Source of the DNA: Antedon mediterranea
Lineage: Eukaryota > Animalia > Echinodermata
NCBI RefSeq assembly: GCF_964355755.1
Contig: NC_092680.1
Span: 21,275,045-21,339,044, forward strand
DNA length: 64,000 nucleotides
Direction of reading: 5' to 3'
Shown: in pieces, positions 27,501-63,539 of the stretch
How the letters are laid out: each line of letters begins with the position of its first letter
How positions within the stretch are numbered: position 1 is the first letter of the stretch
Program-made: the position numbers and the translations under genes
The notes under the pieces: generated by a model
Seen by the model: the letters and a program-made list of their open reading frames with translations, nothing else
What the model was told of the DNA's origin: nothing
The model's database searches: none

Positions 27501-27657
27501 GCTGCTCCTTAGTGACGTCAGCATCTGACTTGTTCTTGGGTTTAACACGAACTAAATTTGAGTTTGGACGACCTTTCTTGGAAGTGGGCTTATTAGAGGA
27601 CCAAGCGTCGCTACTAGATCGTGGTTGTATATCAACTTTCGAACTATTACATCCCAT
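24575..27657 (-). CDS. STMND1: Stathmin domain-containing protein 1-like (~314 aa); 3 coding exons
   Basis: Exons 27657-27282, 25478-25186, 24850-24575 with consistent phases. N-terminal MGCNSSK acylation motif; ESADILAELQSQGIV, GLAFEV, RPPPRLAKLK, EIDAKIQAAEERRK and AAENRKARMEALKEKLK resemble recalled STMND1/stathmin motifs. Confidence 0.85.
26274..26620. mobile_element. TTAA-flanked MITE (Kolobok/piggyBac-like), copy 1
   Basis: TIR TTAAAGATGTATTGTCCCC / GGGGACAATACATTTTTAA; inverted homologous copy at 37768-38083. Confidence 0.75.
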
Positions 27658-27964
27658 GTTACCGGTAAACTATCTTCTTTTCTTCAAAACCTGTATAAAA
27701 CCAGTTAATCCTCACAGATTTATTACTTTCGCAATATTAAGTTTCGTACTTAAGTACAATTTACGAAGTGTATTCCGTGTGAGCACCAAGTCCTATAACA
27801 ATATGTTAAAACGCACGAATTCGATTTCTATACTGAGATATATCCGTTGTTTGGTTGAATTCAGTTTGTGAAGTGACCTACCATCTGATTATCTGACCCA
27901 TTTTAATCGGTCTTGTTCCGCTGATTCCATTGTAACTACGTAAATAATCCCTGCATGGCATTCG

Positions 27965-36087: not shown

Positions 36088-36820
36088 ATTAAACAGTAAC
36101 AATATTCTGTTAACAATAACAACGTTTTTAATTATTACTTTGCAGTGGACCTAATCAGCCTTAATTAGTTGTAGGAATTGACAGAAAAAAATATTGCAAG
36201 ATGCAACGCAAGGACGTAACCGCGCCGCAAGTAATTGGACCAATCACGACGCGATGGGTCAACTGAACTGTCGCTTGTGATTGGTCAACTCACTTGCGTT
36301 CCTGCGTCACGTTGCGTTCAAGTGGGAAAACTTTATATCATTAATTATTAACATTCAATAAAAAAAAAATCCTTACATATTAATAAAATAATAAAGTTAT
36401 ATATTAAAATATCAACAGATTTCTGTCTAAACATTCATAATGTATCAGTATGTTCAGACAGAGCTACTTTAATTAAAATGTTCTTTTGAGGTCAATCATG
36501 ATAACTATGAGAGTATTTTCTTTAAATGATATTACCTGCTCTTGGATCTCACTCTCTGGTTATTAATATTAGCTAAAAGATTGCTTGTCAATGTTGGTAT
36601 CTCAATGCGTTTCTATCTACGCCGACACAAGATCAGGAATATTAATATAAATATACCAAGATATCCCGGATTTAGCTTGTGATTAGTACGCGATAAGAAT
36701 TACACAACCTTGAATGAATAGTATTTACGAATCATTCTCCAGTTATACAACAGCATCGTTTGTGATTCATTGTAAAAAAAAGGAATGATGATAAATGTTT
36801 TCTGGTAACTACTAGGTGGT

Positions 36821-39800
36821 ATGAGCATTAGCCTGCGGACGTTTATACGCCGACGGACGCACTCAGGATTGGAAATGCTCAACCGTTTAAAGAGTTTTGG
36901 GGGAGTTAGTATGAGGCGACGTGGTACTACAACCTCGTCGTCAATGATGCATATGGTACCAAACGAGGAGGACACGTTGGATGATATTGTCATGACGTCG
37001 GAAGTGTGTAGTATTTTTGATAGTCCATATCGCCTTATAAAGGTAAGAACTGTGTATTGTGATATTTTGTATATTTTGTAAGATCATTTTAATCTAGACC
37101 TTTTTATTTGAATTGCCCCGTGTGGGATGATTAAAGAATTTTGAATTTAATTGAATTGAACAAAATACTAGACAATAATATTTTATTATTTATTAGAAAA
37201 AAAGGAGGTAATATGGAATACAAAGTGAATATACAAGATTTAAAAATGATATTGATGAAGTTGATCAAATTGTAATGACATTAGAAGTTAACAAAAATGT
37301 GATAAATAATATGATTTTATGTCAATAAAAGTGGTGTTTATGCCACAAAAAAGGAACAAAATAATAATATGTTATTTAAAACAAGATAATATTAATTATA
37401 ATTAAATGCAAAAACGTAGAGAAGTTGTATTTATTTGAGTAGCCAAACTTATTTCAACAAACAAATTTTAGTATACAAGATAGCTATTTATACACAGCTT
37501 TTGGAGTTGAGTTTTGTTTACATTAACAAAGAATAATAATAATATTTTATAGAAGTAGTCTTCATTGTCAATCCGTTGTCGTAAATGTACACATTAATGG
37601 TCTAATATTTAGAATAATATTGTTGACATAGCAATATTTACAAGATCATTTCATAATTAAATACATTTCTTTAATACATTTATTCGCTCAATATTGAATA
37701 TTTTCAGATGAGCAATGATTTAACTACAGTATAGGCCTATGACTAATTAATTAACTACAGTACAAATTCAAAGATGTATTGTCCCCCTAAAAAAACAATT
37801 CTGTAAAAAAAAAATTGTTGAGTAGGCCTATGCTATTTTAATTTCACGTAGTTATTTATGTTGACCAAAAATTGGATCGAAATTGGCTGCCAGTGGGTGG
37901 GTTTTTGATTGAATGGGGATTGAATCTAACCATTTATTTTGTCATTTTATAAGTGGAAACATTATTGTGCTAATTTTTTTCTGCGGAAGTGATTAGCTGT
38001 ATTAAAACTGCAGAATAACCTATTCCAAGTCCGATTTAATTAATCTTCATTTTAAATGTTTTTGGAGGAAAATACATATTTAACTAATGTTGAGTTACTA
38101 AACAATTAAACTATTCAGAAAAAGGGTTTTTTGTCGACTGCTGATATGATTTACATACAATATGGTGACAATATAAATGACTGGCTTAATTGACCCATAT
38201 GCTAAAAGGGACGCTGATCTAAAATTCCACGTTACAAATAAATTACAATGAGAATAATTTTATCATTTTTATTGTTATTTTATCAAATACAATGTTTGTT
38301 TTAAAAGAGGACTACTGTATTTTTATTAATTTTTTTTCTTAGTTGTTATACTTTAAAAGATGTTTTTTCTTGTTTTGTTCGTTTTATTGTAATTCTCTCT
38401 AACAAATAAATAAAAATTTAAAAAAATTAATTTATGGAGGCATTTAAAAAAAAATTTAAATAATCATCGTCACTGGACAATGTAAAGAACTGAATTTATT
38501 TTTAATAATGTGAATACTATAATGACTGAGCAATGGCATTTTTATTGGTCACTTTATTTCAGAATAAAAATTCCATACAACAAACAATAAAAACGGAAAT
38601 CACACAAAAGTAGAATTTTCTCTCATTTTGTGAAGAGATTTGAAGATCGTAACAGCAGGGAAGAGTGGAATTATACTCTTCCTTGGTAACAGATAGTTGC
38701 GGATTACACCTAACAAGATCATTTCACTATTGAAACTCTTAGCCTATTCTAAAACGACAGACGTTTTAACTGTTACAACATACAATACGAAATATGCCTG
38801 CAAATTACATGTGATAGGATAGGACACAGTAATTTTACATTTACACATTGTCAAAAATTATTACTTCAAAATTCCCTAATTATTACAATTGTCCGTCAAT
38901 GTTTAGAATCTTCACCATTCATCGTCAGACATTAGCAGATGTATCAAACATCATAATAATGTTTTTGTTATACGTTTTTTTAAATATTTGTATGACACCG
39001 ATTGTGCCTGTCATGCGTTTCACAAGGCTTAAATAAATTTGCATCTGATTCTCCTGCATAATGGTCATCATTTTCCTCATTACGTCATCATCTAGAGGAT
39101 ATCAAATGTTCCTTAATTACAACTTAATCAATGACTGACCAACGGTAATGCGTGATCTTCGATTTATTCCAGCAAGAACAATGTCCCCTCGATCCAATAC
39201 CCTATTTGTTCCGTCTACTTTTCAAAGTAAATGTTTGTTTATAACTGAAGTTATTTTTGAAAAATATATTTTCGATCTAAACCATTTCGTCGTCACCTAG
39301 TAACCAAAGAAACATAGAATAAAACAGTTGACATGTCGCTGAGAACAAACAGCAGCAATTTAATCGAAACATTTCATAAAGGAAAACACCAATTAGTGAG
39401 ATGATCGAAATATTTGAAATTGGTATAGTAGTTTTACAGTTACATAAACAACCGTTTGAGGTATCGTTCAGTTTATTCAAACACAACAACAACCAACGCT
39501 GTAAGAAAACAGATTAGGCTGATGACAAATAAACCACTCCTTACGTCGGCAAAACTATAACGACGCGTCGTACTTATGTTATCAATTATTATATATTATT
39601 ATCAATACTTATTATTAATCCACGAGCTCATGTTATAATAGCTATATATGACGTCATGTGGTATCACGTGCGCTTACAAATATATCTTAATATTATTTCT
39701 CCTGCATCTTTTAGTAATAACGTTTGGAAAATGTTATGTAAAATGTACATAATTATTATAAACCATTTCTCATTGTTTTCATGTCATAATCTTCCATCCT

Positions 39801-42800
39801 TCATTTTTGTTTACATGCTTCCTGTCTTCTGCCTCTTGCCTCTCACTGATGACCAATTATTTTTTTAAAGTTTTTTATTTGATTCCCTTTTTAAGATTTC
39901 TATTATGATTATATAAATTCTATTTTTTACTTGTTGTCAACTATTATGTTATTGTCTTGCCAAATAGTATCGTTCTGAGGGTCCGTCGATCGGCTTCGTA
40001 ATAAAATTAAATACAAACATCGTTGAGAGTGCGCATGCGTAGACGTACTGTTGATAATATTTCTTAACCGTTTACGTCCTTCTTTTTTTAGTAGATATTA
40101 GCCTATTGAACAATTTATATGTAGAAAATAAGTATATAATATCATCTCATTTTCAGTACTAATTTAACTTTGAAATAATAAATTAAGCTTGGTATGTTGG
40201 CGACTGAGGAGTATTGATAACATCTGACGATATGGACAGCCTAATCAAATCTATCAATTTAGTTGACAATCAGGCGATAACATTATTTGTCAATCAGTAC
40301 TTAGGTAATGAAGATAATGATCTTTCAATGGTATTTTGCAATAAGGTACGCCCTTATCATATTTCTCAGAGTGTAATAACCCTTATATAAAATGACTGAA
40401 ATAATCCATTAGGTTTAACCCTTATGTTTGTCATCATGGCATGAATTTTGTGAATAATTATCTCAGTTTTCCCATTCATGGCATTAAAGGAGGACATCAG
40501 ATAGTTTGTTAGATCTATAACCATCAAAGTAAAATAACTTGTAGCTGATTCAGTCAGTCTTTGGCCACACTCCCATTCTAGGCTCAATGAAAAAATATAT
40601 AAGAAGCAAGTATCAGAAACAAAAATGTTTTTATGGCTTACATATGCAATTACTCTATCATACAATGAAAAATGAAATTGAAGAAAACTCAAAACAAAAT
40701 AGAAAAGAAGCAAGTAGAATTCAGAAACAAAATTACAAATGGTTTCATGGCTTACATATGCAATTACTCTATCATACAATGAAAAATAAAATTGAAGAAA
40801 AAAAATCAGATTGAAATAAAAACTTATAAAATAAAATAGAAAAAAAGCAAGTAGAATTCAGAAACAGTTAAGAATGGTTTCATGGCTTACAATTCAATAA
40901 CTCTATTATACTATAGGATATAACCTATTTTATTTATTTATTTTCAATCTTTCTACATAGCAAAAAAACAAACATATAAGTATAACAGGAGAGTAGCGGA
41001 AAAGCAAAAGTATAAAACTGTCATCTTGTGATGTGCTTGACCAGCCCCTGTCAACTTGAACGATACAATAAAACCGACATTTAACAAATTTAGAAAAATA
41101 CATAGAAAAATAAGGTATAATAAAATGTTAACAAAAGTGTTATAAAAATGCAATTGCTATCTGAACAATCTGATTGTGTAAAAGTTAAAAATTCTGATTG
41201 TATAAAAGTTAAAAATTAAACCTATATAAGTAGTTTACGTTTATATCACTGTACTAGCCTACAATAATATATATGGCATGTGAAGTCATGAAATATGTGC
41301 TAATTGGCATTTCTTTGGCTAATAGTTTTTTTTTTAAATTAAAGTGTGCTAAGTTATACAAGGTGACTGACTTAAGTTATAATCATTGTAGTCAACAAGT
41401 GTGCAGCAGCTAAAATGTCATAATCATATTTTAGTCGTCAATTATTTTTTTTCTCATGTAGTGATTCTCTATGGTTGAATGACGTATTTTTTCATATCAT
41501 TTATCCTAATTATATTGCCCTACATTTTCACTATTGATGATCTATTTTTTTGTCAATAAAAGTTGAATGAATAATCTATTGATCAGCTCACATGATTTTG
41601 TTATTTCTTTAACTCTGCAATCGATCTCATGACGATATTATAAAAGCCATTATATTTGTTAAAGAGATCGTTTATCATAAGCGGAATCAGTGCTTTTGAC
41701 TCCACTTTATCCATCTACTATTAGTAACCGCATTTAGAATAATTATTTATACATCATCTCAGTTTATAGTCTATAATGTTAATGTGAATGTGATATGATC
41801 AGAGAGAATGTTAGCGAGTACATGAACATCTCTCTTGTTAAAGCATTACTGTGAAAAAATTATTCCAAAGATAAACAATTTCTACTTTTTCTAAACATGG
41901 AAAAACGCCCTGTAAACTGTTACCTTACACATTAGTTTATATTGTAACAATAACTGTTTGATAAATGAACATCTTTTGTTTAACATTGTTGGGTCGGCAA
42001 GGTACAGGGGAAACTGTATCTACATAATGCATAATTCTAATTTTTGATGAGAAATTAAGAATTTCTACTTTTTCATGGAAAAATATACTGTTGTTGTAGA
42101 CAATTTAGTTTAGTTTGTATGTATAAATATTGGTTAATTAACAATATTTGACAATATAAAAATGAAGATTTATTTTTATTCTTATTATCTCATCTTAAAG
42201 CTTATTTCTTTCCGACAAAATAGTATAGTGTTTAGTAGACTTGCTCCAAGTCTGTATTGTTTTTTTTAATAATTTATTTGTTTTTATTTCGACCCCGATT
42301 TTTGTCTGAAAATACAGACTTGTGAAACACGTATAGAAATCGATTTGCAGACCGCAAACAACTGATAAGAATGACGTAGGTTATCATACCGTATTTGGCT
42401 ATATGGGGCGGGCGGTATTTAAATATGGATTTCAAATCAACCAATGATCATTTTGTTTCAAAATGAAAAAGATCGAGTACGTACAGTCATGCTGAATGTA
42501 CGATCGAGACTGTTGAAATAATGAAATCGTGTTGCCAAGTTGTTTTGTTTATTAATTGTTTAGTCCTTAGCCTAGGCCTCGCACGTATGATCTGCCAAAT
42601 AAAACGCCAATAAGAGGTAGGCCTACATACCACCACCGGCACACAACAGGATTCACACACAACAGACAGGGCTACGACACCACTACACAGAACAGGACAG
42701 GGTCTAGGTGGGATTTAAATCAAATTATCTCCGCGTAATATTAAATGATTCATTCAATGTTTGATTTGCGCAGAAGCAAGACGAGTTTTCATGTTCTTGG

Positions 42801-45800
42801 GGAAAATCCCATCAAATGTTTACCAGACTACTACTAGGCATATAAAATCATTTCTAGCCTTCAGAAACTTTCATCAATGTCCCGATCAATGTACCCAAGT
42901 ACATTGTCTAAACGTAACATAGCGCATGCGTACCACAATTAGTTGTTGAGTCTTTGAAATTCTGAAATATGAATATTAAAACAGTGTACGAGTGAGTAGC
43001 CAATCGCATGCAGCTGAAACTAGTCAACCGGATAATCTATGCACCAAGAATTCTTGGTGTTAAACCACGTGACTTTTGCGTGTTTCCCCAGACGGAGTAT
43101 CCAAACTCAAGTAATACACGTATGAAACGCCATATGTGCAAAAATGTTTATATTTTTACTAATATTAAGAAAAAAACTCCGTCTGGAGCCCAGACTAAGT
43201 GTTTAGCTACACCCACGTCATATATTGTCTGATTCCTCTCGATGAAGGATTTATCCTGCTAGCTTCTAGGGTCTTATCGTAGACTGACATCAATCGGTTC
43301 AATCTCCTATTATCACTTTTGACAATTGTATTTGTTTCACTGTTACTAAAGCAAGACATCATAGGATTCATTCTTTAAAACATTCTGTCTCGTAAATAAA
43401 TGTTTGTTATGTTCTATTAATAATCATAAAGCTTGCTTGTGAAATGACAAGTTTTGCAAACCTTAAGTGTGATGCTTACATTAAAGTGATGCTTTCCTCA
43501 AGTGAAATAAGGAGGCAAAAAGTATTATTCGTATAGGCTGCCTCCTCTCTCATCTCATAGTTGTTATATGTGAGCTGCTTATGCTTAATGTTAGCACCTG
43601 TGTATGCTTAGTGTCTATTCGTTAATGTCCTAATTGAGATTTTTTGTCTTTTAAAACGAATTTAAATTATTCTGTTTTCATTTAAAAAAATACATTCTAA
43701 ACAAAGACAGAGAACATTAATCGTGTTTTCCAACATGCCAATATATTAGCATAAGTCTAACATTTCTTGATTGGTTGTGAATTTGTTTCATATCCCAATA
43801 AGTAAATTGAAATGTCAGTACTAATGCGCATTATATTCCATCTACTTTCGATTCGCAAGAATAAATTTAATGAAAAACATATAAATAATATATTTTACTT
43901 GATTAGGTTTGTTTTGTCATGATTTTGTTAACCGTAAAAGTAATTGTAATGCTCAAATATGTTTGACCTTCTGACACTTAGTACAATAATATGCCTCGTG
44001 TAAAATAATCAAATTGTAGTTTAACGTTAATTAAAAGATATTAAAAGATTTCAAGAAAGGCCTGCAGAAAGTTAATATTGACAGTTGCTGCAGTAAGTGA
44101 GGATAATTATTTTTAATTACCTTAAATATTGATTATTTTCAAATAAATGAATGTCTTAAACGGGTTTTAGAGAGGTTAGATAATAGAAACATTAATGTAC
44201 CGGAATGTGCAAATCTGCTCTTTTCTGGATCAATTCAAGTATAAAGAAAAAAAGAGTAAATCTATATTTTAATATAATAATATTTAAAACATACTTACCA
44301 CATCTCTCTGTGTCAAACGTATTCTTGTACATTTTTTTTTCAACAATGCTCCTCCATACCTCCGTGGCTCTTTTATAGCTAGTTCACATTATTCATGAGA
44401 AACAATGCTTTTCTTAGCTAGTTTCTATCCCGTCACTGTGAACTTTGCTATTGTTTTAGCTTTCAAACAATGCTTTTCTTAGCTAGTTTCTATCCCGTCA
44501 ATGTGAACTTTGCTATTGTTTTAGCTTTCAAGCCAGTCCTTCCCAGTTTCATTTACTGTATTTCCCACTTTCCTGGGATTTCTGCATTCTCACTCATGAG
44601 AGGACGAAGTATTGTGGTGTACCCGCAAACTTTATATATATCAACACACTATTATTTTCGCAAACCTTTCAAACAATATATACTTGCTTTGTTAAGTGTT
44701 TATATAAACGGTCAGTGAATGAGAATTTAATATTGACATAGTGGAAGCGTGTTGCTCTTCGTAAATCAAAACTATATCCATACCTGCACAAAAATCTAGG
44801 CAGAGGTTCTTAAATGGTGGATTATAGACACCGCGTAATATCAATTTCAAATACAATCCGATGTAGGCTGAACAGTAAAGCACATGGCTTTTGCAAACTT
44901 GTTCACGGTAGGTTAACAGATCTTTCTTAACATGTATAGCCTACTTTACTAGCCTAGGCCTTATCAATGATCATTTGTTCACGGTAGGTTAACAGATCTT
45001 TCTTAGCATTTAGACTTTACTAGCCTAGGCCTTAATCAATGATCATTTGTTCACGGTAGGTTAACAGATCTTTCTTAGCATGTAGACTTTACTAGCCTAG
45101 GCCTTAATCAATGATCATTTCTTAAACTACCTTATTTAGCAGGCTTCCTATTTGTGTAAACATTCCATTGTTTATTGTATTTATCTCTGAGCCGTGGTGT
45201 GATTTTTGGAGATTGAGCTGCGAGTTGTTACGGCATTATTCCTACGTCATGCCTTCCTTGGTGATTTACAACAGGTATTATACTTACGAGAGGTGGAAAG
45301 ACCCCGGGAAAGACTGATAGCTAAGATCGATGAATGAGACTGATAGCTAAGATCGATGAATGAGACTGATAGCTAAGATCGATGAATGAGACTGATAGCT
45401 AAGATCGATGAATGAGACTGATAGCTAAGATCGATGAATGAGACTGATAGCTAAGATCGATGAATGAGACTGATAGCTAAGATCGATGAATGAGACTGAT
45501 AGCTAAGATCAATGAATGAGACACTCCCATCACCAAAATAGACTATTGGTCAATTAGTAGAAGTTTTGTTCTATTTACTATATTGACTTGATTTGTGTAT
45601 TATTAAGAAGAAGAAGTACATACACAAATCAAGTCAATATAGTAAATAGAACAGAACTTCTTTTGTTGTTGTATGTAAATAAATAAATTATTACATATTA
45701 CATTGGAAACTATTTAAATTAAAATAAGTTTAATGTGTGCTATTATGGTATACGGTAGGCCTACCCTTACATAAAATAGTTTGGTTACTTTGATCATGGA

Positions 45801-48800
45801 GGTATAAAATAACCTCCATGCTTTGATTTTATTATGAACGTGAGTTCCATTTACATCTTTTAATCTTTACGACTAAAGCTCATACAATGTCGCTAGAATT
45901 TTGTGACAATTACTATTCACACAATACTTTAAAATATGGATATGGTACCAATGAATACACGGATTGTTTATAGCGATCAATACACTTACTGTTACTTGTG
46001 GCGAAACTTATTGAAATCATATTGGTCCTATTAAGGAGGTAATGCAAAGTGTAATTGGTGAACAAATAAAAGAGGAAAAAAAAGAAACAAGATGAAATGG
46101 TGGAACGATACGGTAATCATCAGTGGTAAAGGATAAAGGGGACGATTATGTTTAACGTTACTTTTGCTGAACTGATATTGTTTTAAACGATACAAACTTT
46201 ATTTATTCTGTCGCAATATCATTATCAAAGAGAAAAAATCAAAAAGAAACGTAATTTCCTGGTGGAACCTGTCTTAAATTTTATTTGAGTTTCACCAGAT
46301 ACAAGGCATTAACTATTTGATTCATATTTTGTTAACATATATTGAATTTTTCTTTGTTTAAATAAATGAATGAAAGAATGAAAGGGAAACGTAATGAGCG
46401 TAAGTGCGTACCATACTTCTTTGACTGCCGCAAGAGGGCGCGAATCCGGAAGTGACTCTCAAAGCGAATTCATTAATGAGTTGGCCAAATTGAAACTTCG
46501 ATTTAAGCTTAAATGACCGGTAACATCAATACAATCAAATTGAATCACATTCAATTATATAAACATAGCGACCACGTCGTACGTACGACGATTAGATATG
46601 ATTTATTAATAGCTTCGGCTGCCGCTAGAGGCGTGATTCCGGAAGTACTGGCAAAGTGCCTACAGCGGCGAATCCGAGCTTAATCGCGCTCTCTGTGCGA
46701 ACGAAGTTGAAATATTCCAATTCCAATCAAACACCTTCAGTTTGTCTCGCTGAAGCATTGGTTTCCACTGGAGACGCAATACAATGACGTAGGTGCACCG
46801 CAAGCGAGTTGAGAAATGAAAAGCGATGGATTATTCGAACTGCCACTTCATTGGTCAACTCGCTTGCGTTATGTCAACGTCATTGCGTTGCCTCTCTGTG
46901 AGAGAGAAAACATGATCAACAACGCATAGTTTGTGGAATATCTGAGACAGCTATTTCCATAAAAGTGTTTCCATTGTCTCCTCCTATAGAATTTAATTAT
47001 TGACATATTGAAGTAGACAAATCAGAAGGGTCACATACCTGGAAAACAGCAGGCAATTAGGGTAGAATTAGTAAATTTAGAAACATACATTATTTATTAA
47101 CAATTTAATATATTTAATTATCGAAAGATTACAATCAATTTATTTAGAATTTACAAAATATAAAATCCAACTTGAGTTAATTAAATTAGGAATATCTAAT
47201 CAGTTTGTAATGGAACTAACACCAGAATATTAAAAATAGGATCAAAATTTATTTTAATGTTTATACATGATGGTCGGTTTCGTAACAACCAATAATACAT
47301 TGACTATACAATGGAAATCATTTTCACAATAACGGTTTTAGGTCTTTGATCTATAAGCCATCATGATTGTGCTGATGAACTATCGAACTTCGGAGCAGAC
47401 GCATATGAAGTCGGAGAAGTTAAAGAAGTATTTTCGCATTTTGGTCTATCAGATTTCTTCTTTCTTTCTCGTCAAATCGTCACTCGAACGGCGAACGCGT
47501 CTGTCCATCATCTACGATTTCTTCTCTTTCGAACTCATTCAACGTATCTGTTTAAAGTGCAAATAACTTTTGATCAAAGTGTTTAAATTATTTAAAATTT
47601 TGTATTTAATAATAATTATTATGGAATCATCATTCAAAATTTCACATCATTACGATAATTTGTTGCTGAAATGCAAACACTCATTCCAATTCAACTTTTC
47701 TCAAAAAGTAAAATGTTGTAGTTACGTTGTTTTGCCTTTGAACGGCCGTCTTTGAAACGTTTCTTTATTACAATTCACCGCGATTGGCCAGATCATCACG
47801 TGTTTTCCGTGTCATGTTTACGCATAGAACTCGTTCATTAAGGATATTAGTGTGTCAACTATTGACGTTTTGACTTCGCTGATGATAATTAAAACAAAAT
47901 GTTACCTGCACGTGATACATTAGTTTTCAAACTGATTGTTATTGAACGATTATATTGTGTTACAAAATAGATTAACATCCCTCCATTGCATTCATGATTG
48001 TAATTTCAATACTTCTTAAACGTTAAAAAAAATATCCTTATTTACAGATATAAAGCCAATATACAGAGATACAATTTTGAATCCATAAATGTATTATATA
48101 TTATCATATCGATATTGCCTTCGTGCAACCAATCGTATAATACAGTTTACATAACTGTCTGATCTCGGTGCTTAATATACCTATTCTAATATTCTGATAC
48201 AGTACATTCCAACGGCATATACGTAACAATAATTTGACCAATCACAAGCAACGAATGAACCGTCACTTGTGATTGGTCAACTTTCCTTCCGCGCACGTAG
48301 TGTGTTGCCAAGGAACAACAACACAATATCCATCACGATTGAAAACATTGCATCTACGGTACGGTACTACTTTTGTATTTGATTGTAATGTTTTCTTATG
48401 TATATTAGTTAAGAGCTTTGTATCTATATATATGTACATAACGAATAAAGAATAAATTAATGAAAAAAAATTACATAAGTATGGCTACACGACATGAAAT
48501 ATAACAATAACAGTTATATAATGAGGAATGTTACTATACCTTACGTATAATACTGTACGTGAGTGTATTGCTTCCTGGATATTGTATAGCTTTTTTTTTT
48601 TTTTTCTCTTTTGTGGCGCAAACACCACTTTTATTCACATTCATATTATCTCATATTACATAAAATCGTATTATTTAACTTGTAAATGTCGTTACAGTTC
48701 ATAAGTAACATTTTTACATATATGAATCCTGTATTACTCCTTTTTTCATTAATTTTCGTATATTTTGTTATACACTTGACAGGATCATCATTGTCATCTA

Positions 48801-51800
48801 TCCCGTTTTAAAATAGTTCACACATTTTCATTTGTTTGTTTTCATTTTACAACCCGGATTATACAATATATTTATATACATGATAAAAAAAACAATAATA
48901 ACTCAGTACCACCAGTAACCCGTATCACTGTAATTCTTTTTCGGTTAATCGTATCAAATTAGAAATTATATTATCATAATCTTATTTCTTAAAGCTACCC
49001 ATTTTTCTATACTTGTTTCTTTATTGTTATATGTTTCACATTCAATGTTATATAACATATTGCTTTTAAATGAATTCCATAAAGATTTACCCACTGGCTT
49101 ATTTAGTGCAGATAACATTTTTATTCTATAAATAGTAAATGCTGCAAAAGTGTAAATATAATCTATTAGCTTATCTCCCGTTCCTAGTATTAATTGTTTA
49201 AATGATATATTATTGTGATTTAAACTTACAAAGATACTAAGCATTTTCCTCCAATATTTCTGAATAAATCTACAACTAAAAAACAAATGATTTTCATTTT
49301 CAATTTCTCCACATTTGTCACACGTTTGTGTACTTGTACTGTACGTGAGTGTATTGCTTCCTGGATATTGTATAGCTATTGTTTTTTTACCATAACATCA
49401 TGAATATTCATGAGCTTTGAAAACAACAAAGATGGTGTATGGTAGCTATTCTGTCGGTCTAGACTGTAAGGTGACATATTTTAGATATATTATTCTTTAA
49501 TCGTAACGTCGAATATTAACGTTCAGATGGAATGGCTCATAAACAACAAATCAACTACTAATGACAGTATCATATATCCAATTGTGTAAAGTGGTTAGAG
49601 AAGAAACATTCCATTTCATTGGCTTCATTTGCTGTTTTCAATGTAAATTGCTTGCTTTTTTAAAGTGAACAATTCCCTTTGTTTTCTCGGTATTTGTAGG
49701 GAAGAGTGAATTTCACTGTCTGGTTATACGCACTTGCACTACTTTCTGTAGGATTAGGCTACGATAGACATTTCTATACCTCCATGATATTACACCGTGT
49801 GACTATCTCTATTGAGGCTGTCACAATGTTTAGTTTTTCTACATTTTTTGGAAGATTCATCCAATATAGGCGATAACATCTGCCAGGTATAACTGTGATG
49901 CTTCATTATACATTCATAATGACAACAATATCAATTAGAATAGGGGATGTGTCGAATAATTGCTATGTGAAATAATGTACATAGTTCAGACGGGTAAGCA
50001 GACTTGAAAGCTAAATGGATTGAATTCTGCTGACAAGTGGTTTGTTACGTCACAGGTTTTAGATTATGTACATTGTAGTGCTTGGATTTGTCGTGTGAAT
50101 GAACTGTATTGTCTACTGTTAGTAGGCCAAGCCTTCCGATTTCGCCACCATCTTTCATATATTATTATAATACCACATAATCAAATATATAATGGATGTT
50201 TTATTTCTGTAATATTCAAGATTGGTGATAATAGGTATCGGCAATCATTGATTAGTAAACATGATGATTAAGGAGTTTGTTTTCGAATTCTGGTTAATTC
50301 TGGTTGAATATTAATAATCCCGGTTCTTTGAGAGTGGTTTACACGCAGTAGTTCACGCGTTCCTCCGGGCGTTCTCTTGATCAATCGTCTGCTTTAATAC
50401 AATTTTAATGTAAAAAGATTCGTTTAATTCTGAGATTAATTTGTTTTCTTTTTTGACATTGATTCATGTCAAGTGAATAAATGAAAAATCGTTGACAAAT
50501 TTGCATATCTGTTAAGTCATTTGAGGTTTAGCCAATAGTGGGGTTGATTTAATGCACACGCGCAACTCTAAAATTAGGATGATGGGAAAATTATACAAAC
50601 AAGATTTGTTTCAAGAATATTCTGTACAGATCTGATTTGAAATGTATGCATGCGATGTCCGGCTTGGGATCTCTATTTATCGAGCATCCATCAGTGTTGA
50701 AAGAAACTGAACTGATTGTATACAGCAGTATACCAATACCTGAACATCGATTATAATTTGGACACTTGCTCTTCTAGACATTGTTACATTTGTAGTTTTA
50801 AAAAAATATCCAGACATTATTAATAAAACTTAAGGTGTCATCCTGCGATAGCTATCTCGGTGTAGAAGAACTGCATCAAAAGTTAAACGCAGTAATACAC
50901 ACCTTGAACTTCCTGTGGCAACACACGTTGAAGGATGAGCGGCTTACGAAGGCTGAGTGAAATCGTGGATATAGCCAGAAGAGCTTATATTGGAGGGTTT
51001 CAAACAAGAATCGAAGCTGAAGAGGCTATGCAATTGCATTCATCCGCTCGACAATCCAACGCTACTACTAATTCTGATATCGAGATGGTTGACGGATGGG
51101 ATGATGTTTTAAATGATGCCTATATTTTAAAAGTAATGTATGGTGATTTTATTTTTATGTTTAATGATCAGGTAATGGTCAGTGAATGTTATTGACTGGT
51201 TTGCTTAGAGTATTAAGGTATATTTGAGTTCCGTATTTCATTTGCATGCCAACTTACCGGTAACGTGTGTAAAGTTCTATGACCTATTCAATTCAAAATG
51301 TAAAAATGTATGTTAAGTCAAATTGAGACTGCTGGCATTCAACAAAGAATGTGACGTAACTGTGCGTAGTAAAGGCCCGCATGAATGCAAAACGTTGACA
51401 AAATTGTGGTTTATTTGTGTATTTCAATTGTCTGTTATCACTAATTTTAAGGCATCGGTTTGGTTCGAATCTTATGTTATCATTTAGGACATTCTAACGG
51501 TATTGCTTGTGAAGTGACTCGATGATCAAACTGGTTGTAAATTACACGACACTATTTGTTCAGCTTGAGCTATTAAAACTAGCTAGATAGTTTACACAGG
51601 TACTATTAACCTATTAACAAAGTGTGGTAAAACCATGTTTATATATCGTAAAATGAATCCGAACGTTTGGTCACAATATATCGACCGCGTCTTGTCTATA
51701 GAAACAAAGAGTTAAGAGGGCAAAGAATGTATTTCAGCAACTGTACCTTACCGGAAGAATTATTCCTCCATGGATGTACCCTCGTCGACGGAGCAAAACT

Positions 51801-54800
51801 TCAAAGTAATTATTTAAACTATATAAAGTGCAGTTGGAAAATTGTTTACACATGGAACAGTAAATGAGGCCTATTGCATACACTACACTTGTCAAGATGT
51901 TTAGACATATGATGATTTGTAATAATTTATAGAAAACAACTAGCCACTGCAACTGTGTTGTTTATTGTCGTAATGTAAGAGTGGATTAGACTAATTCAGT
52001 TAAGCTTTTGATGATAAACTTAATCTTCCTTTTGAGTAAATACGTAGTCTTTCGTGGTATTATAATTACAATACTAACATATTCAATTCCGTTTATCTTA
52101 TATTGATGTACGTGATCGGAGGCCTAACGTTTCATCATCATCATCTTACAATTGATGTGACACCTAAACTGGTGAATATCATTTCAATATGTGCGATAAT
52201 TGCCATCAATATTTTTTTTTATCGTTATGATGATTTGAAAAGTCTCGCTTAATACAAACATTGTTCCAACGAGATACAAAGTTGAAATAATGACCACATT
52301 TTTGCTTATTGTAAGCAAAAGGCTGATTTTCTAATAAACGTATAAAATATACATTAGGACTTGGTGTTTGGAAGTAGTATGGTGGGTGTCACACAATAGC
52401 ATTTGTTCCAGCATGTAAATGTAGTGTCTTCTCAAACCTATCTAATTTGTATAACTGTATAAAGAGGTATAACATGTTTTTCTGTTTCTACAATCATTTT
52501 TTTTAATGACGTCATGTTAAAAAAAACTTCTCAGTGATTATACTGATAATTAATTGTGATTTTTAAAGACTAAAATAATTAATTAATAAATATCTTTGTC
52601 TCAGATCGTGTTGGTTGGTTAGTTTGCTGGTTTTTAATGACTTATCTGTTTATTTTTCAATTCCTAAATGGCCTAGGCGATAAAACTCACAAACACCCTA
52701 ATTAGTACTACTACCATTTTAACACACTCTACAAACCTCGTAATCATTGTTTCTAGTTTTATTATATTACAAGTCTAATGAATGACGTCATCAATTCTGT
52801 AATTAACGTACTTATCTGTAGAGCATTGCAGGTGCATTTAATTGGAGTAATTAGTATTAATATTCATAATTAATAATGAATGTATCATCAGACTAATCGT
52901 TGAAACACAACTAGCCACAAACAAAATTGCTTTAGTATTCATTTTTTATTATGCTTTTTATTATTCTAATAATTATAACTCTCTTATTATAGTTTGACGA
53001 CATTCCATACTAAAAGAAAGTTTTCACATGAGTCACAAAACTAGATAGACTCGAGTAATGTTAAATACAAGTAATGCTGATAACAACATTATATCAAGGC
53101 AATATAATAATTGCCTCATTGAAAGAAACCACATACCGTACTTTTTTACTGCTTTTTACTGTTTGTTTGTTAATGCAGATATTTTATGGGTTTTTTTTGT
53201 TGCAAATATGTAATATTCCTTGTAAATGCAGGCCCTTTATAACGTAATTAAGAAAAACGAATTCGTCTGTATAATTTATTGACTTGAAATGACATAGTTT
53301 TATTCAATCGATATCCTTCATCATCGTCCAATTTTTTTATTTATTTTTAGATAGCAGAGAAGGGAAATTATGATGAATTTATTGAGCTGTATCGGAGTAA
53401 ACCGGACCGAGTCAATTTTAAAGATAAGCGTGGTGCCGGTGTTCTACACCATTCGGTCAAAGGCAACAACATACAAATCATGGAGTTCCTCATATCTGAG
53501 GGCATTGGTAATATTCTATTTTACTCTTTTGTTTATGTTTGAAAGAAGTTTTACAATATGGAGTTTGTGAAATTCTAATTAATAAGTCTAGTCTTGAAAA
53601 TGTACCAAAATGCGAAAGTTTTCTTGAGGTTTTTTTTTACTTCTGCATGAGTTTGTCAACTCCGTCTACACGCAAACTTTTCTTGCCAAATGCTTGAGTT
53701 TGCTTGTGTTTTAAAACCAAAGTTTAGCTTAAATGATTAAATGATTTGAATTGTTGTTGTTTATCGTTTTATGTATTGCAATACATTCTGATGGGTTTCC
53801 CGCTGTCAAATTTAAATGAAAATAAAAAAAAAACACATCATCATTAGGTTATATTATCAACGGGAATCTTTTTTACACATATCTCCAACTTCTTATTGTT
53901 GTAATATTATCCTAACCAACCTACTTAAATTATTATCAACATTTGGTTTAAACAAAAAATGTTTAGTTTGATTTTTCTCAGAAACTCTATTATGTCATTT
54001 AGGCGTATATGAAAAACAACATGATCATGTAGTTTAGGTCTATCTCATGTTAGGGTTTATCTCAGAGATTTTATTTAATTTGAAAGAAATAAATATATAA
54101 TAAATATATATAAAATAAATTAATTGCAAAAAAAGAAAATATTATCCATTATCGTTGAAAGTCATGATTACTTCCATGTTTTAATCTTCCTCCTGATCTA
54201 TCATGTAAATAACGAGGCTTCAGTACAATGTGATAAATTACACGATTAACATTCATATAATAACTATATATTGCAACGGTACAGTCGCAAATCAGTACGA
54301 TGTTTTGCAATCTCAATTTCATTAATCAAGTTAACCTTCTTTGGTTTGCATAATGTTGTTAGTTCCGGAACATACACATTTACAATTCCACGGTAATTAA
54401 TTTCAACTTTATTTTGTACATTTCAACATTTCGCTTCGTGGATTCCATTTTGAAATTAGATTCTTCTTCTATCCTCTTTCGCGTCATATCATTACTACAA
54501 AGCTTTAAATTCATTCTGACAGCTTCATTTATTAAATCGCATGAAATGTAGACTCCTTTTGTCTACAAATTTAAACCGATCGATCAGTAAACATTAATAC
54601 GTCATAGCATCTTATAACTGTATCAAACTATTTCTAATGTATGTCAAGTGTGCTTATTTACTTTATGTAATATGTTGCTGTATTGACAACAGTAGTGCAA
54701 TGTATTTTGAGAATCTAATGTAATTTAGACCGAAAAGGAAAACTAAGAATAAAAAACAAATTTGCAGTTTCTTTTCATTTGAAATGAATAATGTATTAGA

Positions 54801-57800
54801 AAAATATGAATAATGTCAATAAAGGCTAAAATGAAATGGAAAATTAATAAGTTTTTGAAATAAAGAGATTTTATTTTAATAATATTCAAATGCTTTCGTT
54901 TATTTTCTATCCAAGGATGACAACCATGCTTGTTTTACATTCATGTTTTTGTTAAATGTGTTTAAAAAAAAGTATTTAAAATTCCCTGGCTGACTTTTGT
55001 GACTTTTACTGTATAAATGCCAAAGATGGCTTTTATCTATTCTAATCTTGTGTAGTTTGTTCAAAGGTTTTTTTTTAATTGTTGTGATTTATTTTTAATG
55101 TTTTATGGCCCTTTTTGAAAATTAACACGTGGAGAAATCTTTCCAAAATAAATATCTTTGAACGGAGATAAATGAGCCAGATAAAAAATGATATAATCAT
55201 ATATTATACAAATTAAAATTACACTTTTTCAATTATGTTCAGATGTCAATTTACAGGACTCCTCTCAAAACACACCTCTTCACTGGGCAGCTTTGTACGA
55301 CAAACCCGATGCTTGTCGATTGTTATTGTCAGAGTTTGGAGCCAATCCGAATATACTAAACGACTGCCATCAAGCCCCACTCCACATTGGATGTGATAAA
55401 AACTATACAAGCATTGTTGAGGTAAGTAAGAACATGTAATTTTTATTGGCAGTGAACATTACTAGAATAAAAAACTTCCATTTTATTCAATTTTTTTTCT
55501 AAAATTGATTTACCTCCCTCAGGAGAAAACAGAAAATAAAACAGTAAATTGTACAATATAAAAACACCGTTGATTTAAAATTCACATGGTTTATAGCATG
55601 TAAAAGAAAAATCAAAATGATTTTTAGAAATTCAATGTGCAAAATATGTAGGCCTCTCTTACAGACTACTACTTTACTATTTTAGTCTAGTTAAGCCTCT
55701 ATCTACTGTCATATAAATAAATAAATAAACTGCTAGATAGGCCTATTCTTGCTTTGTAGGCTTTAACCATTTTGTTTTTCTTGTCAATTGGATATAGAAA
55801 CCCCTAACAATCGAGAAAACACAATGTTTATATTATTTTATCTATTTTATTCAGATGGTACACAATTATATATCTTAGAGCATATATTATACAATATACA
55901 ATTCTTTTTTACTCTAAGATATATAACTAACTAAGTAAAAACCTCTATTTGACAATTTAAGCAATGCTTTTGCACATGCTTTCTCCATATGTGCAAAGAA
56001 GAACTATTTTGAAAGTGTTAATAGTTTAAATAATAACAGAAAAGTCTCCCAAGCCCATTATAATTTAATCAAACTCATTTGATTAATATGTTTCTTCAGA
56101 TTTTATGTAGTGAGAGCAAGACTGATATCAATTTAGCAGGGGATGCAGGACAAACCCCACTTCACTACTGTGCTGTTAAAGATAGTGTCGAAACCGCAAA
56201 CATACTGGTGAGTAGAACATCCATATCAATGTGAAGGAATTTCAGCCTAACTGTGCTGTATTACTAGCTCGCATATGTGAACGACAAAAAACTACTTTCA
56301 TCTCATTGCCGAAAAGCCCTCTTCCGATGCACTGTGTTCTTTAAAGTATAGGCCTATACGAGCCAGATGTGTAACCTGGACCTAAAATCCTTATCCGAGA
56401 AGAATTGTTCTACCACCAGAACAATGGTTGACGAGAGGCGTGAACCTGTGCTGATTTTATGGCTATGGTTTACGGTGAACCCTACCACTCGGCCACCTAA
56501 AGTAAAGTTTCTTTAAACCGTTTCTAAACTCAAGATTGTTATATCCATTCAGTCTTAGTCAGTGTCATCATAGCTACAAACTACCTTAATATATTATGAT
56601 CAGATCAGAAATAGCATGTAATAAAGATCCATTGTAATTAACGTTGTTGTTCTCAGATTCGAAAAGAAGCTAAAATGACGATACCAGATTCGAACGGAAT
56701 GTATGTGTTACATTCTGCTGCAACCCATGCCTCGTCTAGAGTGCTTGATCTGTTGTTTACAGAAGGTGAGAATGAAATATCATTTAATACATTTTCATTT
56801 CTTTCGTTATAGTTCATCGTGATTATTCAATAGAGCGCATCTCGCGTCTCAGCTCCGTGCACGATTTTCAAACTTTTGATTTGTTATTACGGAGAAAATT
56901 CTCACGCAACCATTTCTCATCATGGATGTGTTGGTTAAACTGTAGGTGGGTTACGTGCATCACGTAGGCCTCTACTTTGGGTAATAAGGAATATACATCC
57001 AATTTCCGCACATATATTCTAACATACGTCTTCATTTTATTTGCGACATAAATTATCACCGAGTCCAAATAAAATATTACTTTGATAGATTGTGTAGCCT
57101 ACTACTGTAATTGTTATTTCTGTTAATAAAAAACGATTCTTGTTTTCTATGTAAAATTAATCCTCGTTTACCTCAACATTACGTTACGTGTTGTTTGCAA
57201 ATTAAATCTGAGACTTGAAAATAAGTATGTTTGAGGCGTCGTTGCAAGCATGTATATATTGTATAAGCCTACAATATAAGTATTGTTCTGATTATGTTTA
57301 TCCAATAAGTAGAACTTCATTAAACAATTGTAAGAATGTTGAATCGTTGTCTTGATTTATAAAGAAAGTTGGAATTATTATAATATAATATAACTATGTG
57401 ACTGGATTGTGTCTCACAGGTGAGAAGTTTGGATGTACCAGAAAAAGCATGTTATCTCTGTTGGACCGAGAGCAGAATTCAGCATTACACTGCGCAGTGA
57501 ACGGTGGGGACATCAATGCAGTCAAACTCTGCTTAGATTTTGGGGTGGCATTGGACGTAAAACAGGTAAGGTTGTAAGGGCCTTTGTAGGCAGTATGTAT
57601 TCTATAAAATAGGTATTTTATAATACGTAGACAAGCTTATAGTATTTTGATCACTCTGCTACTTGTAAAATAGCCGATAATTTCCAAAATGTGTTCGGGC
57701 ATTTCTAAAACAATTCGGAATTAAAAAAGACTTAAATAGAGTAAATGGCATGATTATCGGGTCTGTATTGTGTTACAGCATAATATAGAAGCTATTAGTA

Positions 57801-60800
57801 GATAGACAGACTAGTTAATTTGCTACAATGGTGTTTTTTTATATTTTATAATTATACTATTATTTTTCATAGCCAGAAATCAGTTAGGTGATTTTTAAGA
57901 ACAACATGTTTTTCAATATCGCATTGAAAAACAACATAATTAAGTTTGAACAGCAAGTTTACTTTGATTATAATATTAACAGTTAAGAATACAAGGCTGG
58001 TGAAGATGGCCACTTAAGCTTCATTACCATGTCACATTTGTTTAATTATGTGCCTGTTTAATTAGCTTTTGAACTCGTGATGTCGACATGTAAACACTTT
58101 ACTAGTTGTTTTTATACATAGTGCTTTAGGCTACACGAACAACACTTAAAGAAACACGTTAGAAAGTTTAAAATCTAGTTCTCAGGTTTTTTTTCTCTGT
58201 TATTTAGAATTATTGAATTTCATACATACATTGGTTAAAGAGTGCCGCACGATATCTTGTTTTTGCTTTTAAGTTGGTCATCCTAGCTAGAGGATATAAT
58301 TTAAGTTGGTCATCCTAGAAGATATAATTCCATTATGTTTTCATTGTCAATAACCACCAATGTAAATAAGGACTCCGCAGGCTAGAGTGTAATAAATAAG
58401 ATAAAACGTCATATTGAGCTTATACAGAAAACAAAATACAATATATGCGTGACAATGTTTTAACAAAATTATTACCGATAAATAATGTAAATGTAAATAG
58501 TGATCGTTGTTAAACTAAGTACAGTATTGAATTAAGTTTCAATGTAATCATTTGTGTTGTTAATAGGCCTATGTCGTTATTTAACCGTCAGATGATCATT
58601 TGTGTTGTTAATAGGCCTATGTCGTTATATTTAACCGTCAGATGATCATTTGTGTTGTTAATAGGCCTATGTCGTTATTTAACCGTCAGATGATCATTTG
58701 TGTTGTTAATAGGCCTATGTCGTTATTTAACCGTCAGATGATAAATATCTTCCTGGTGTTTACTCATCTATTGAAGTTTAAATGAAATTAGCGGCGCAAT
58801 TATTTATCTGCTGTCTCTTAATCTCATACAGCGTCAGATGTATTATTAGATAATGATGATCATACATTTCTTAATATCAAGTTATTCATTGCAATGTAAA
58901 CACACAATATATATTTTATTACACCTTCGAGATGAACGCGAGTCAAAGTACTTGTAGAATATCACGAGTTGTTAGTAGTTGCTGTGATGTAGACCGCTAA
59001 ACTCGTGTTTACACGGTAACAGGTAGCTTGTGTTTTCTAATTGTTTGAAACGAAGTCTTGATTAATGACTATGAAAGCAAGTGTACTTTTATGATAAAGC
59101 TAATAGGAATTGGCACTGATTGAGAGCTTGTAATGAAGCACTTTCACGAAGTCAATTAAAGAATAAATGTCAGCCAATTTAATTAAAAGCATGACTCGCG
59201 AAAGCAGATATTGACTGTTACTATACATTGTTTTATGACTAGATGTATAATTAATACTATCATAAACGATTTTACGACATGGCTTGTTTTGAAAATCTTG
59301 TTAGTTGCTGAAATGTTGGATTCAAAGGAGCGTTAAACCACTGCACTTCCATTATGTGATTGTAATTAATAAATGGGTGTCAAATCTTTTATAATCAAAA
59401 CAGCTCAAAATATAGCTTGTTGATAATAATGAGTAAGCTATTTTGAGATGAATCAGCAATATTGTATCTTCACGTACGTCGTTACGAACGCGTCTCAGGT
59501 TGCATTGCGTCAGATGGTGTAATTCTTCACGTACGTCGTTAGGAACGCGTCTCAGGTTGCATTGCGTCAGATGGTGTAATCTTCACGTACGTCGTTAGGA
59601 ACGCGTTTCAGGTTGCATTGCGTCAGATGGTGTAATTCTCACTCGCATAGCAAACTATAATTGTAAATAAAACACAAAGCTTGATTTCAGTTAAAATTAA
59701 CCAGAGTAATCTTTAACACAAACTAATAATCATGAAGTACATTTTCATACATTATTTGGCAATTTTTAGAACAAAAACTCTAACTAGCTAGCAGCTGAAC
59801 ATATTCGAAACAAAATAAGGCTCTGTTTACACTATCAAACTTTATGTGACAACAAAAATGTGATGTGCCCATATATGGACATTATGATGTCAAATCCCTA
59901 TCATGTTGTGCATATCACTACCATATTTAGGCACATCAAACTTTTTTGTCATAAAAAGTTTGATAGTGTATAGACAGAGCTTTATTAAAACCTGCCCCTT
60001 CCGTCTTCCTGATTCCGATCATGATCAATGTTTGGTAAAGAACGAATCGCTCTGTGATGAAACTTGTTTTATTTTAGGATGATGGTTCAACGGCCATTCA
60101 TCTTGCGTGTTCTTTAGGCTGCTTGAAGATTATCAAACTGATGATTGAACGAGAACCAGGAAAGCATCTACTCGAGATTAAAGACAACCAAAACCAAACG
60201 CCACTACACAAGTAAATGCAACCATTTATTTGTAGCTTTAATGAACTGAATTCAACCATTGCTTAAGCTCTCAAGTCTACACTATCAAACCCCGTGATGT
60301 GCCCATATCAACCATTGCTTAAGCTCTCAAGTCTACACTATCAAACCCCGTGATGTGCCCATATCAACCATTGCTTAAGCTCTCAAGTCTACACTATCAA
60401 ACCCCGTGATGTGCCCATATATGGACATGATTATGTCATATCACTACCATATTTAAGCATATCACTACCATATGGGCATATTATTATTACACTTTTTTGA
60501 CAAACTAGTTTGATAGTAGACAGATTGGTTAAAAGTAAATTGGAAATAGTTGAATTCGCATAAACCATTAACCAAATTTGTTTATTGGGAAACAGGCTTA
60601 ATTTAATGTTTACTTTGCTTTTTTATTTTTGTTTATTGTCTTTCATTAGTTTGTCATGTACTGTTGAATGTATTGGGTCATAGTGAGACGAGAGCTGCTT
60701 ACTTTTATACATAATTGCAACGAACTCTTCGTTTCCAATACTGTTTGTTATTATAAATAAATAAATATACAAAGTTATAGAATCAACAATTAATCATTGA

Positions 60801-63427: not shown

Positions 63428-63539
63428 GTAAGAATTAACACGTTGTTTCTGACGCGTCACACTAACATTTTAGCAACATTCTTACTAATTTGATATTTCT
63501 AATAATTGAAAATCTAAAGCACTATTGGTTAATTTCAAT

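What the first reader, a model, noticed from the sequence alone, without database searches (positions are those of the whole stretch)
36821..53507. TRPA1 has two alternative N-terminal exons joined at the same site as insect TRPA1(A)/(B) isoforms
Seen: exon A (36821-37042, 74 aa, ends SEVCSIFDSPYRLIK) and exon B (50935-51132, 66 aa, ends DDVLNDAYILK) each start with an ATG preceded by an in-frame stop and end in a phase-0 GT donor compatible with exon 53351 (IAEKGNYDEF...). The upstream stop makes B unlikely to be an internal cassette. Established (recalled): Drosophila and Anopheles TrpA1 use alternative promoters giving N-termini that join at AAESGN; the (A) form ends ...EVCLLTDSPFRILR and has reduced heat sensitivity linked to these basic residues, while (B) is heat-sensitive. 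Exon A resembles that (A) end (EVC..DSP[YF]R..[KR]); exon B lacks the Arg. Inference: the chemo/thermo isoform switch may be far older than insects, or convergent.
Basis: partly seen in the sequence, partly recalled or inferred. Interest (0 to 1): 0.8.

Follow-up and report, generated by a model that had tools for sequence, protein, structure and literature searches.

The report
Ancient start-exon switch in TRPA1
A feather star's gene for the irritant- and heat-sensing channel TRPA1 has two alternative start exons in database gene models, one ending in the cysteine-arginine tail known to tune the fly channel; gene models of molluscs, an acorn worm and amphioxus show the same layout, so that tail is likely as old as the common ancestor of insects and starfish and likely tunes the channel's response to oxidants, light or heat, which is untested outside insects.

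Summary
Observation confirmed. The window is the crinoid Antedon mediterranea, a deuterostome. RefSeq already models both forms (X1 with exon A, X2 with exon B), identical over 1176 residues after the junction. The exon A tail is homologous to the insect TRPA1(A) tail. It keeps the positions of fly C105 and R113, with Lys at R116. The motif sits before the same junction in starfish, acorn worms, amphioxus, molluscs, an annelid, a nematode and non-insect arthropods, but in 0 of 45 vertebrate records. A-tail plus non-A start pairs, diverging at exactly this residue, occur in 9 of 15 non-insect clusters looked up. Exon B is not detectably homologous to insect B or any other non-A start. These share only two hydrophobic positions, which likely complete the first ankyrin helix. 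So the A module is ancient, while the switch is either ancestral or repeatedly rebuilt. A plain 'A = chemo, B = thermo' reading is doubtful: the starfish A-type channel is heat-gated and drives larval thermotaxis. No read shows the B junction and no function was tested. Not found in print or in earlier scan notes.

The parts
36821..37042 (+). First coding exon A (distal), 74 aa; RefSeq X1 starts at the later Met at 36875
   Evidence: 65% identity to the Anneissia orthologue over the whole exon
37001..37042 (+). A-tail motif EVCSIFDSPYRLIK: Cys codon 37007-37009, Arg 37031-37033, Lys 37040-37042, matching the spacing of fly C105, R113, R116
   Evidence: role of the fly residues from PMC5068967 passages
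50935..51132 (+). First coding exon B (proximal), 66 aa from the first ATG, or 16 aa from the Met at 51085 as in RefSeq X2
   Evidence: no relative found
51133..51171 (+). In-frame extension to a second possible phase-0 donor (CAG|GTAATG at 51171), not used by RefSeq X2
53351..53507 (+). First shared exon C; starts in the middle of the predicted first ankyrin helix
   Evidence: covered by a contig of run X1
55243..63428 (+). Nine further shared ankyrin-repeat exons; the gene runs on past the window end
   Evidence: tblastn map; three of the introns are skipped in a contig of run X1, with GT..AG ends

Best explanation
The crinoid TRPA1 gene has two candidate first coding exons, both in RefSeq models, that are likely used from separate promoters and are predicted to swap the cap of the first ankyrin repeat; exon A carries a tail homologous to the insect TRPA1(A) tail and likely acts as a Cys/Arg gating module, while exon B is likely a lineage-specific plain cap. 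Shown: exon anatomy, orthology to starfish TRPA1, homology of the A tail, and the same divergence point in gene models of five phyla. Predicted: the junction lies inside the first helix of the ankyrin stack; the A tail gives a Cys and Ser-Pro loop and a short helix start, the B tail a longer plain helix. Inferred from fly mutants: the A form would respond more to nucleophiles, H2O2 and UV-made radicals and would have a different heat response, so promoter choice would set what a cell's channel senses. My odds: A tail ancestral 0.97; exon B really used as a start exon 0.8; the two forms differ in gating 0.65; A more redox/UV-sensitive than B 0.45; strict fly-like chemo/thermo split 0.25.
For: Orthology: Antedon groups with Anneissia, starfish PpTRPA1, urchins and acorn worms, apart from a second echinoderm paralogue that lacks the motif (SH-aLRT 95-100). 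Motif: among 25 non-insect A-type tails Cys(-12) 25, Pro(-6) 25, Arg(-4) 22, Lys/Arg(-1) 25 (chosen by motif score, so partly circular). A Drosophila record has Cys, Arg, Arg at spacing 8 and 11, as C105/R113/R116. Pairs: 9 of 15 non-insect clusters of this clade hold an A and a non-A start (12 genomes: Antedon, Branchiostoma, Saccoglossus, 3 Haliotis, Patella, 2 Magallana/Crassostrea, Ostrea, Littorina, Biomphalaria). In 22 of 24 pairs compared the proteins are identical over the whole length after the junction, and 0-4 residues match before it. Non-A starts are conserved within oysters, abalones, amphioxus and several insect orders (z 5-47), so those are under selection. Unrelated non-A tails are hydrophobic at -3 (19 of 24) and -2 (17 of 24) against 28% background. 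AlphaFold puts a helix across the junction in both types (residues 77-84 of starfish P0031, junction 80|81; 5-20 of Antedon P0001, junction 16|17). Run X1 has spliced contigs of the core; one 315-nt contig covers exon C from 53349 and has 143 unlaid 5' letters, which fits exon A (ends AAG) and not exon B (ends AAA, and lay inside the stretch).
Against: Nearly all isoforms are predicted gene models; no read or contig here shows the B-C junction, and the A-C junction is inferred from a loose end only. Exon B has no relative in 1.84 billion representatives (one spurious repeat hit), none among 40 non-A starts, is not beyond chance as a frame, and its lack of allele differences is not significant (0 of 12 events, P 0.15). 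Six of 15 clusters show no pair: A only (Anneissia, Patiria), non-A only (Lineus, a second Branchiostoma cluster) or truncated models (two urchin clusters); clusters were picked for having several members. The Saccoglossus pair comes from two annotation versions (287 identical residues). The starfish A-type channel is heat-activated at 34.8 C, and a morpholino against its first Met abolishes thermotaxis. In Aedes aegypti the two N-terminal forms did not differ significantly in heat-evoked current, and all three mite forms are heat-activated. The structure models are of a starfish A form and a B form with only 16 exon-B residues; the Cys itself lies in a stretch with pLDDT under 50.
Confidence: 0.65

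Rival explanations
1. The A/non-A promoter switch itself is ancestral to protostomes and deuterostomes, and the B exons are homologous but have diverged beyond recognition.
For: Pairs at the same junction in insects, molluscs, echinoderm, hemichordate and amphioxus. A lies upstream of the non-A exon in Antedon, in Drosophila (bioRxiv 2025.05.09.653172 passages) and in fused oyster models P0292, P0293, P0194.
Against: No cross-phylum similarity among non-A starts beyond what 820 comparisons could give by chance (best z 6.2, brittle star against limpet). Amphioxus has three and oysters two mutually unrelated non-A starts, which shows frequent new birth. A new start exon in the first intron is downstream of A by default.
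Confidence: 0.35
2. The A tail is simply the ancestral structural cap of ankyrin repeat 1, and non-A exons are repeatedly recruited tissue-specific starts with little effect on gating; the fly function is an insect speciality.
For: Both tails are predicted to complete the same helix; starfish A is heat-gated; Aedes forms did not differ significantly; non-A exons turn over fast.
Against: The Cys at -12 lies outside the predicted helix yet is kept in 25 of 25 non-insect A tails, while non-A tails fold without it; fly C105A and R113A/R116A lose DTT, UV and most H2O2 response; abalone keeps three separate A-like exons.
Confidence: 0.3
3. Exon B is not a true long first exon: either a rare or spurious model, or a 48-nt phase-0 exon (51085-51132) spliced in from an upstream exon.
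For: RefSeq X2 starts exactly at 51085, right behind an AG with 65% pyrimidines; B-like frames arise in 21% of simulated introns; no relative found.
Against: That acceptor is GAG, whereas 7 of 7 acceptors of this gene checked are CAG or TAG; X2 holds no exon A residues; RefSeq also skipped the conserved first Met in X1; non-A start exons at this junction are the rule in related phyla.
Confidence: 0.2

Closest known systems
Drosophila and Anopheles TRPA1(A)/TRPA1(B) (Kang 2012, not held; seen through PMC5068967, PMC11471635, PMC4843866)
   Same: Two first coding exons with own start codons join the same residue of the first ankyrin repeat; A distal, B proximal; A tail keeps Cys(-12), Ser-Pro, Arg(-4) and a basic residue at -1.
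   Different: Deuterostome; R116 is Lys; exon B is unrelated in sequence to insect B; the crinoid A start is one exon, the fly A start spans exons 1 and 2; no expression or current data.
Mite TRPA1 N-terminal isoforms, Tropilaelaps TmTRPA1a/b/c and Varroa L/S (PMC4929936, abstract and sections 2.1, 3.1)
   Same: Alternative transcription starts give different N-termini on one channel core.
   Different: All three Tropilaelaps forms are heat-activated and differ in chemical range; their junction was not compared here.
Starfish PpTRPA1, BAX76612.1 (PMC5438368, passages)
   Same: Orthologue with an A-type tail, GVCSIADSPYRILR, 44.5 bits.
   Different: Only one form was cloned; the word 'isoform' does not occur in the main text; it is heat-activated and needed for thermotaxis; 'H2O2' does not occur in the main text.
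RefSeq models XP_071965134.1 and XP_071965136.1 of Antedon mediterranea
   Same: They are these two isoforms.
   Different: Automatic models with later start codons and no interpretation.

Membership tests
TRPA1 clade | Long ankyrin stack plus six-helix ion transport domain | tested here: met
   Pfam Ank_2, Ank, Ion_trans on P0026; best solved match Drosophila TRPA1 7YKR, E 1e-251
TRPA1 clade | Groups with characterised TRPA1 channels | tested here: met
   Clade with starfish PpTRPA1 in a 50-row tree, quick method, midpoint root, no TRPA-basal outgroup
Insect-type TRPA1(A)/(B) switch | Two N-termini join the same residue of a shared core | tested here: met
   X1 and X2 identical over 1176 of 1176 residues after the junction; exon anatomy
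Insect-type TRPA1(A)/(B) switch | A form carries the C105/R113/R116 tail | tested here: met
   Cys, Arg, Lys at the same spacing; 25.0 bits under an insect-only profile
Insect-type TRPA1(A)/(B) switch | B form homologous to insect B start | tested here: not met
   z 2.4 or less against all 40 non-A starts, insects included
Insect-type TRPA1(A)/(B) switch | Both forms are transcribed from separate promoters | tested here: inconclusive
   RefSeq models both; contigs of one probable RNA run fit A-C indirectly and cannot show starts
Insect-type TRPA1(A)/(B) switch | Forms are expressed in different sensory cells | not testable with these tools
   no tissue data
Insect-type TRPA1(A)/(B) switch | A has low Q10 and nucleophile response, B high Q10 | not testable with these tools
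   needs electrophysiology; starfish A is heat-gated

The most novel reading that the evidence does not exclude
The last common ancestor of protostomes and deuterostomes already switched a Cys/Arg nucleophile-, peroxide- and UV-sensing module on and off its TRPA1 by promoter choice. Marine invertebrates, eyeless crinoids among them, would use the A form as a skin sensor of light-made radicals, and vertebrates kept only a non-A start, which would explain why human TRPA1 behaves like the fly B form towards DTT, H2O2 and UV.
Probability: 0.3. Interest if true: 0.8.

Novelty: new member of a known kind. Interest (0 to 1): 0.6.

Why it matters
The N-terminal switch of TRPA1 is treated as an arthropod device; Du et al. 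[quoted passage not shown] The sequence module behind it is shown here in echinoderms, hemichordates, amphioxus, molluscs, an annelid and a nematode, usually beside a second start exon, and it is missing from the vertebrate records. This makes the question of what ancestral TRPA1 sensed directly testable with natural isoform pairs and an existing starfish clone. It also means that studies which cloned one TRPA1 form from a marine invertebrate may have missed others.

Tried and rejected
No whole genome is held for this window. Sequencing-run search: no RNA holder listed; one probable RNA run (X1) with a small share. X1 has no cover on exon B; with contigs of depth about 6 this says nothing. Exon B search of 1.84 billion representatives gave one low-complexity hit; full-length B forms would be hidden behind a cluster representative, so this blank is weak. 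An eye-catching likeness of the exon B start to the brittle-star start (MSG-LRRLS / MAGVLRRLS) is not significant (z 0.5, P 0.28). Hagfish has Cys at -12 and Lys at -1 but scores -10.9 bits, so it is not counted as A-type. My donor rule gave 3 candidates of 50 or more codons on the plus strand (A, and B with two donors) and 2 on the reverse-strand control, so it does not separate B from chance. Allele depletion in exon B is not significant. TATA- and Inr-like matches were seen upstream of A but prove nothing. 27 of 295 proteins of 900-1400 aa could not be anchored at the junction and were dropped before scoring (non-TRPA1 ankyrin proteins and truncated models). Kang 2012 and Zhong 2012 are not held; no supplements were read, and alignments there could already show non-insect A tails. 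No cnidarian or TRPA-basal sequence was sampled. Earlier scan notes held nothing on TRPA1.
Full report
Observation. The three exons are in the sequence as described. Exon A (36821-37042, 74 aa) and exon B (50935-51132, 66 aa) each follow an in-frame stop and end at a phase-0 GT; exon C starts at 53351 behind a TAG acceptor with 80% pyrimidines. A homologue search with a core exon gave a 100% match to TRPA1-like isoform X2 of Antedon mediterranea, a crinoid. Its cluster holds X1 as well. X1 uses exon A and X2 exon B; they are identical over 1176 of 1176 residues after the junction. Both RefSeq proteins start at a later Met. The true start of B (66 or 16 residues) is open.

Transcript evidence. 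One probable RNA run (X1) was found. Its contigs skip three core introns with GT..AG ends, which the two DNA-like runs do not. One 315-nt contig covers 53349-53520 and has 143 letters at its 5' side that lie on nothing in 46000-58200. The two extra bases AG fit the end of exon A (AAG) and not exon B (AAA); exon B was inside the stretch and would have shown as a joint. This is consistent with A-C splicing but does not prove it; the same contig also runs 13 bases into the next intron, which I cannot explain. The B-C junction rests on the RefSeq model alone; that such alternative models usually rest on RNA alignments is my recall. From sequence alone B is not beyond chance (21% of 200 simulated introns).

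The A tail is ancient. A profile built from 46 distinct insect A-type tails scores exon A's last 14 residues at 25.0 bits, the best of 49,142 14-mers in the window (next 2.5); exon B scores -33.6. Tails of 12-45 bits sit before the same junction in starfish, two acorn worms, amphioxus, abalones, limpets, oysters, Littorina, Biomphalaria, Owenia, the nematode Plectus, a scorpion, a mantis shrimp and an unnamed record that groups with a millipede. None of 45 vertebrate records has the pattern, nor does the second echinoderm paralogue. In 25 non-insect A tails Cys(-12) and Pro(-6) are invariant, Arg(-4) is kept in 22 and a basic residue at -1 in all 25 (the set was chosen by score). A Drosophila record has Cys, Arg, Arg at spacing 8 and 11, the spacing of C105, R113 and R116, so the mapping to those residues is inferred from spacing.

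The layout is widespread. I looked up 22 clusters, chosen mostly for having several members: 6 of the second echinoderm paralogue, 1 Drosophila, 15 non-insect members of this clade. Nine of the 15 hold an A start and at least one non-A start, in 12 genomes. In 22 of the 24 pairs compared (23 from these genomes, one the Lineus non-A pair) the proteins are identical over their whole length after the junction; the other two share 174 and 287 residues, and 0-4 residues match before it. The Branchiostoma lanceolatum cluster has four different starts and Haliotis rufescens five, three of them A-like. The six clusters without a pair are A only (2), non-A only (2) or truncated (2). The intron itself is shown only in Antedon; elsewhere it is inferred from the divergence point. 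One oyster non-A protein is also encoded whole on short Logan contigs (P0294), which looks like a transcript.

Exon B is not insect B. Among 820 pairwise comparisons of 41 non-A starts, strong matches fall within groups: abalones, three amphioxus types, oysters, moths with flies and louse, vertebrates. The best cross-phylum score is z 6.2 for one pair, and Antedon B reaches at most z 2.4. What unrelated non-A tails share is a hydrophobic residue at -3 (19 of 24) and -2 (17 of 24) against 28% background. So either an ancestral B diverged beyond recognition or new starts are recruited again and again; these data cannot separate the two. A lies upstream of the non-A exon in Antedon, Drosophila and fused oyster models, but new exons in the first intron would be downstream anyway.

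How it likely works. AlphaFold models place a helix across the junction. In starfish P0031 (A type) residues 1-70 are disordered and helix 77-84 spans 80|81. In Antedon P0001 (B type, 16 exon residues) helix 5-20 spans 16|17. The start exon therefore supplies the cap of the first ankyrin repeat, which explains the hydrophobic constraint. In the solved fly structure the isoform-specific N-terminus is not resolved (PMC10073219 passages). In flies, (A) and (B) have Q10 of about 9 and 116 (PMC4843866 passages); C105A and R113A/R116A remove DTT and UV responses and cut the H2O2 response while leaving electrophile sensing, and human TRPA1 behaves like (B) (PMC5068967 passages); (A) is still heat-gated near 42 C (PMC11471635, first of four parts). 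I infer that promoter choice in the crinoid swaps a redox-tuned cap for a plain one. This step is untested.

Against a simple transfer. The cloned starfish channel is 1,200 aa, and the first-Met morpholino matches the start of P0031, an A-type form. It is heat-activated at 34.8 C, and its knockdown abolishes larval thermotaxis (PMC5438368 passages). So an A form can serve thermosensation in an echinoderm. In mosquitoes the heat difference between N-terminal forms was significant in three species but not in Aedes aegypti (PMC6934445 passages), and the three mite forms are all heat-activated (PMC4929936).

Novelty. The isoforms are in RefSeq and the kind of switch is known from insects and mites. 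Nine literature searches showed no paper on the A tail or alternative first exons of TRPA1 in echinoderms, molluscs, hemichordates or amphioxus; 'Antedon' with 'TRPA1' gave 0 papers. Passages of a 2025 review (PMC11875151) and of an abalone TRP survey (PMC12980990; 'isoform' 0 times) do not mention it. Du 2016 places the origin within Diptera. The library lacks most subscription papers, Kang 2012 and Zhong 2012 were not held, and no supplements were read. Verdict: a new member of a known kind, with a much deeper origin of the A module than reported in what I could read; interest 0.6.

Noticed in passing
P0185, P0273, P0269 (Haliotis rufescens) and two other Haliotis genomes: Abalone TRPA1 has up to three different first exons that each end in an A-like motif, plus two non-A starts: the A exon itself seems to have been duplicated into an array.
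   Followed up: partly
P0177, P0179, P0183, P0184 with P0043, P0047, P0310: Amphioxus TRPA1 has four alternative starts; the three non-A ones are each conserved in another Branchiostoma genome.
   Followed up: partly
P0292, P0293, P0194 (oysters): Some gene models join the A exon and the non-A exon in series; likely annotation errors, but they give the exon order.
   Followed up: no
P0285, P0191, P0190, P0303 (oysters): Oyster A tails carry a second Cys at -2 (RICK/KICK).
   Followed up: no
P0050, P0033-P0035, P0037-P0040, P0042, P0052, P0064: Echinoderms have a second TRPA1 paralogue clade that lacks the A motif.
   Followed up: partly
P0119 (hagfish): Cys at -12, Leu at -10 and Lys at -1 may be a decayed A tail, but the score is -10.9 bits.
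   Followed up: partly
window 24578-27669, minus strand: A stathmin-family gene lies upstream of exon A, head to head with TRPA1 (Pfam PF00836 on two of three frames tested).
   Followed up: partly
window about 15660-20690 and 1470-5850, plus strand: Exons that look like a syntaxin 7/12 gene and an MFSD2-type transporter gene (names recalled from the translations, not tested).
   Followed up: no
window about 48440-49400 and 56175-56580: High-copy interspersed repeats in the introns, with depth far above the single-copy level in all three runs.
   Followed up: no
window 36785-36808: A short in-frame upstream frame (two Met codons, then a stop) lies just before the start of exon A and could be an upstream ORF if transcribed.
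   Followed up: no
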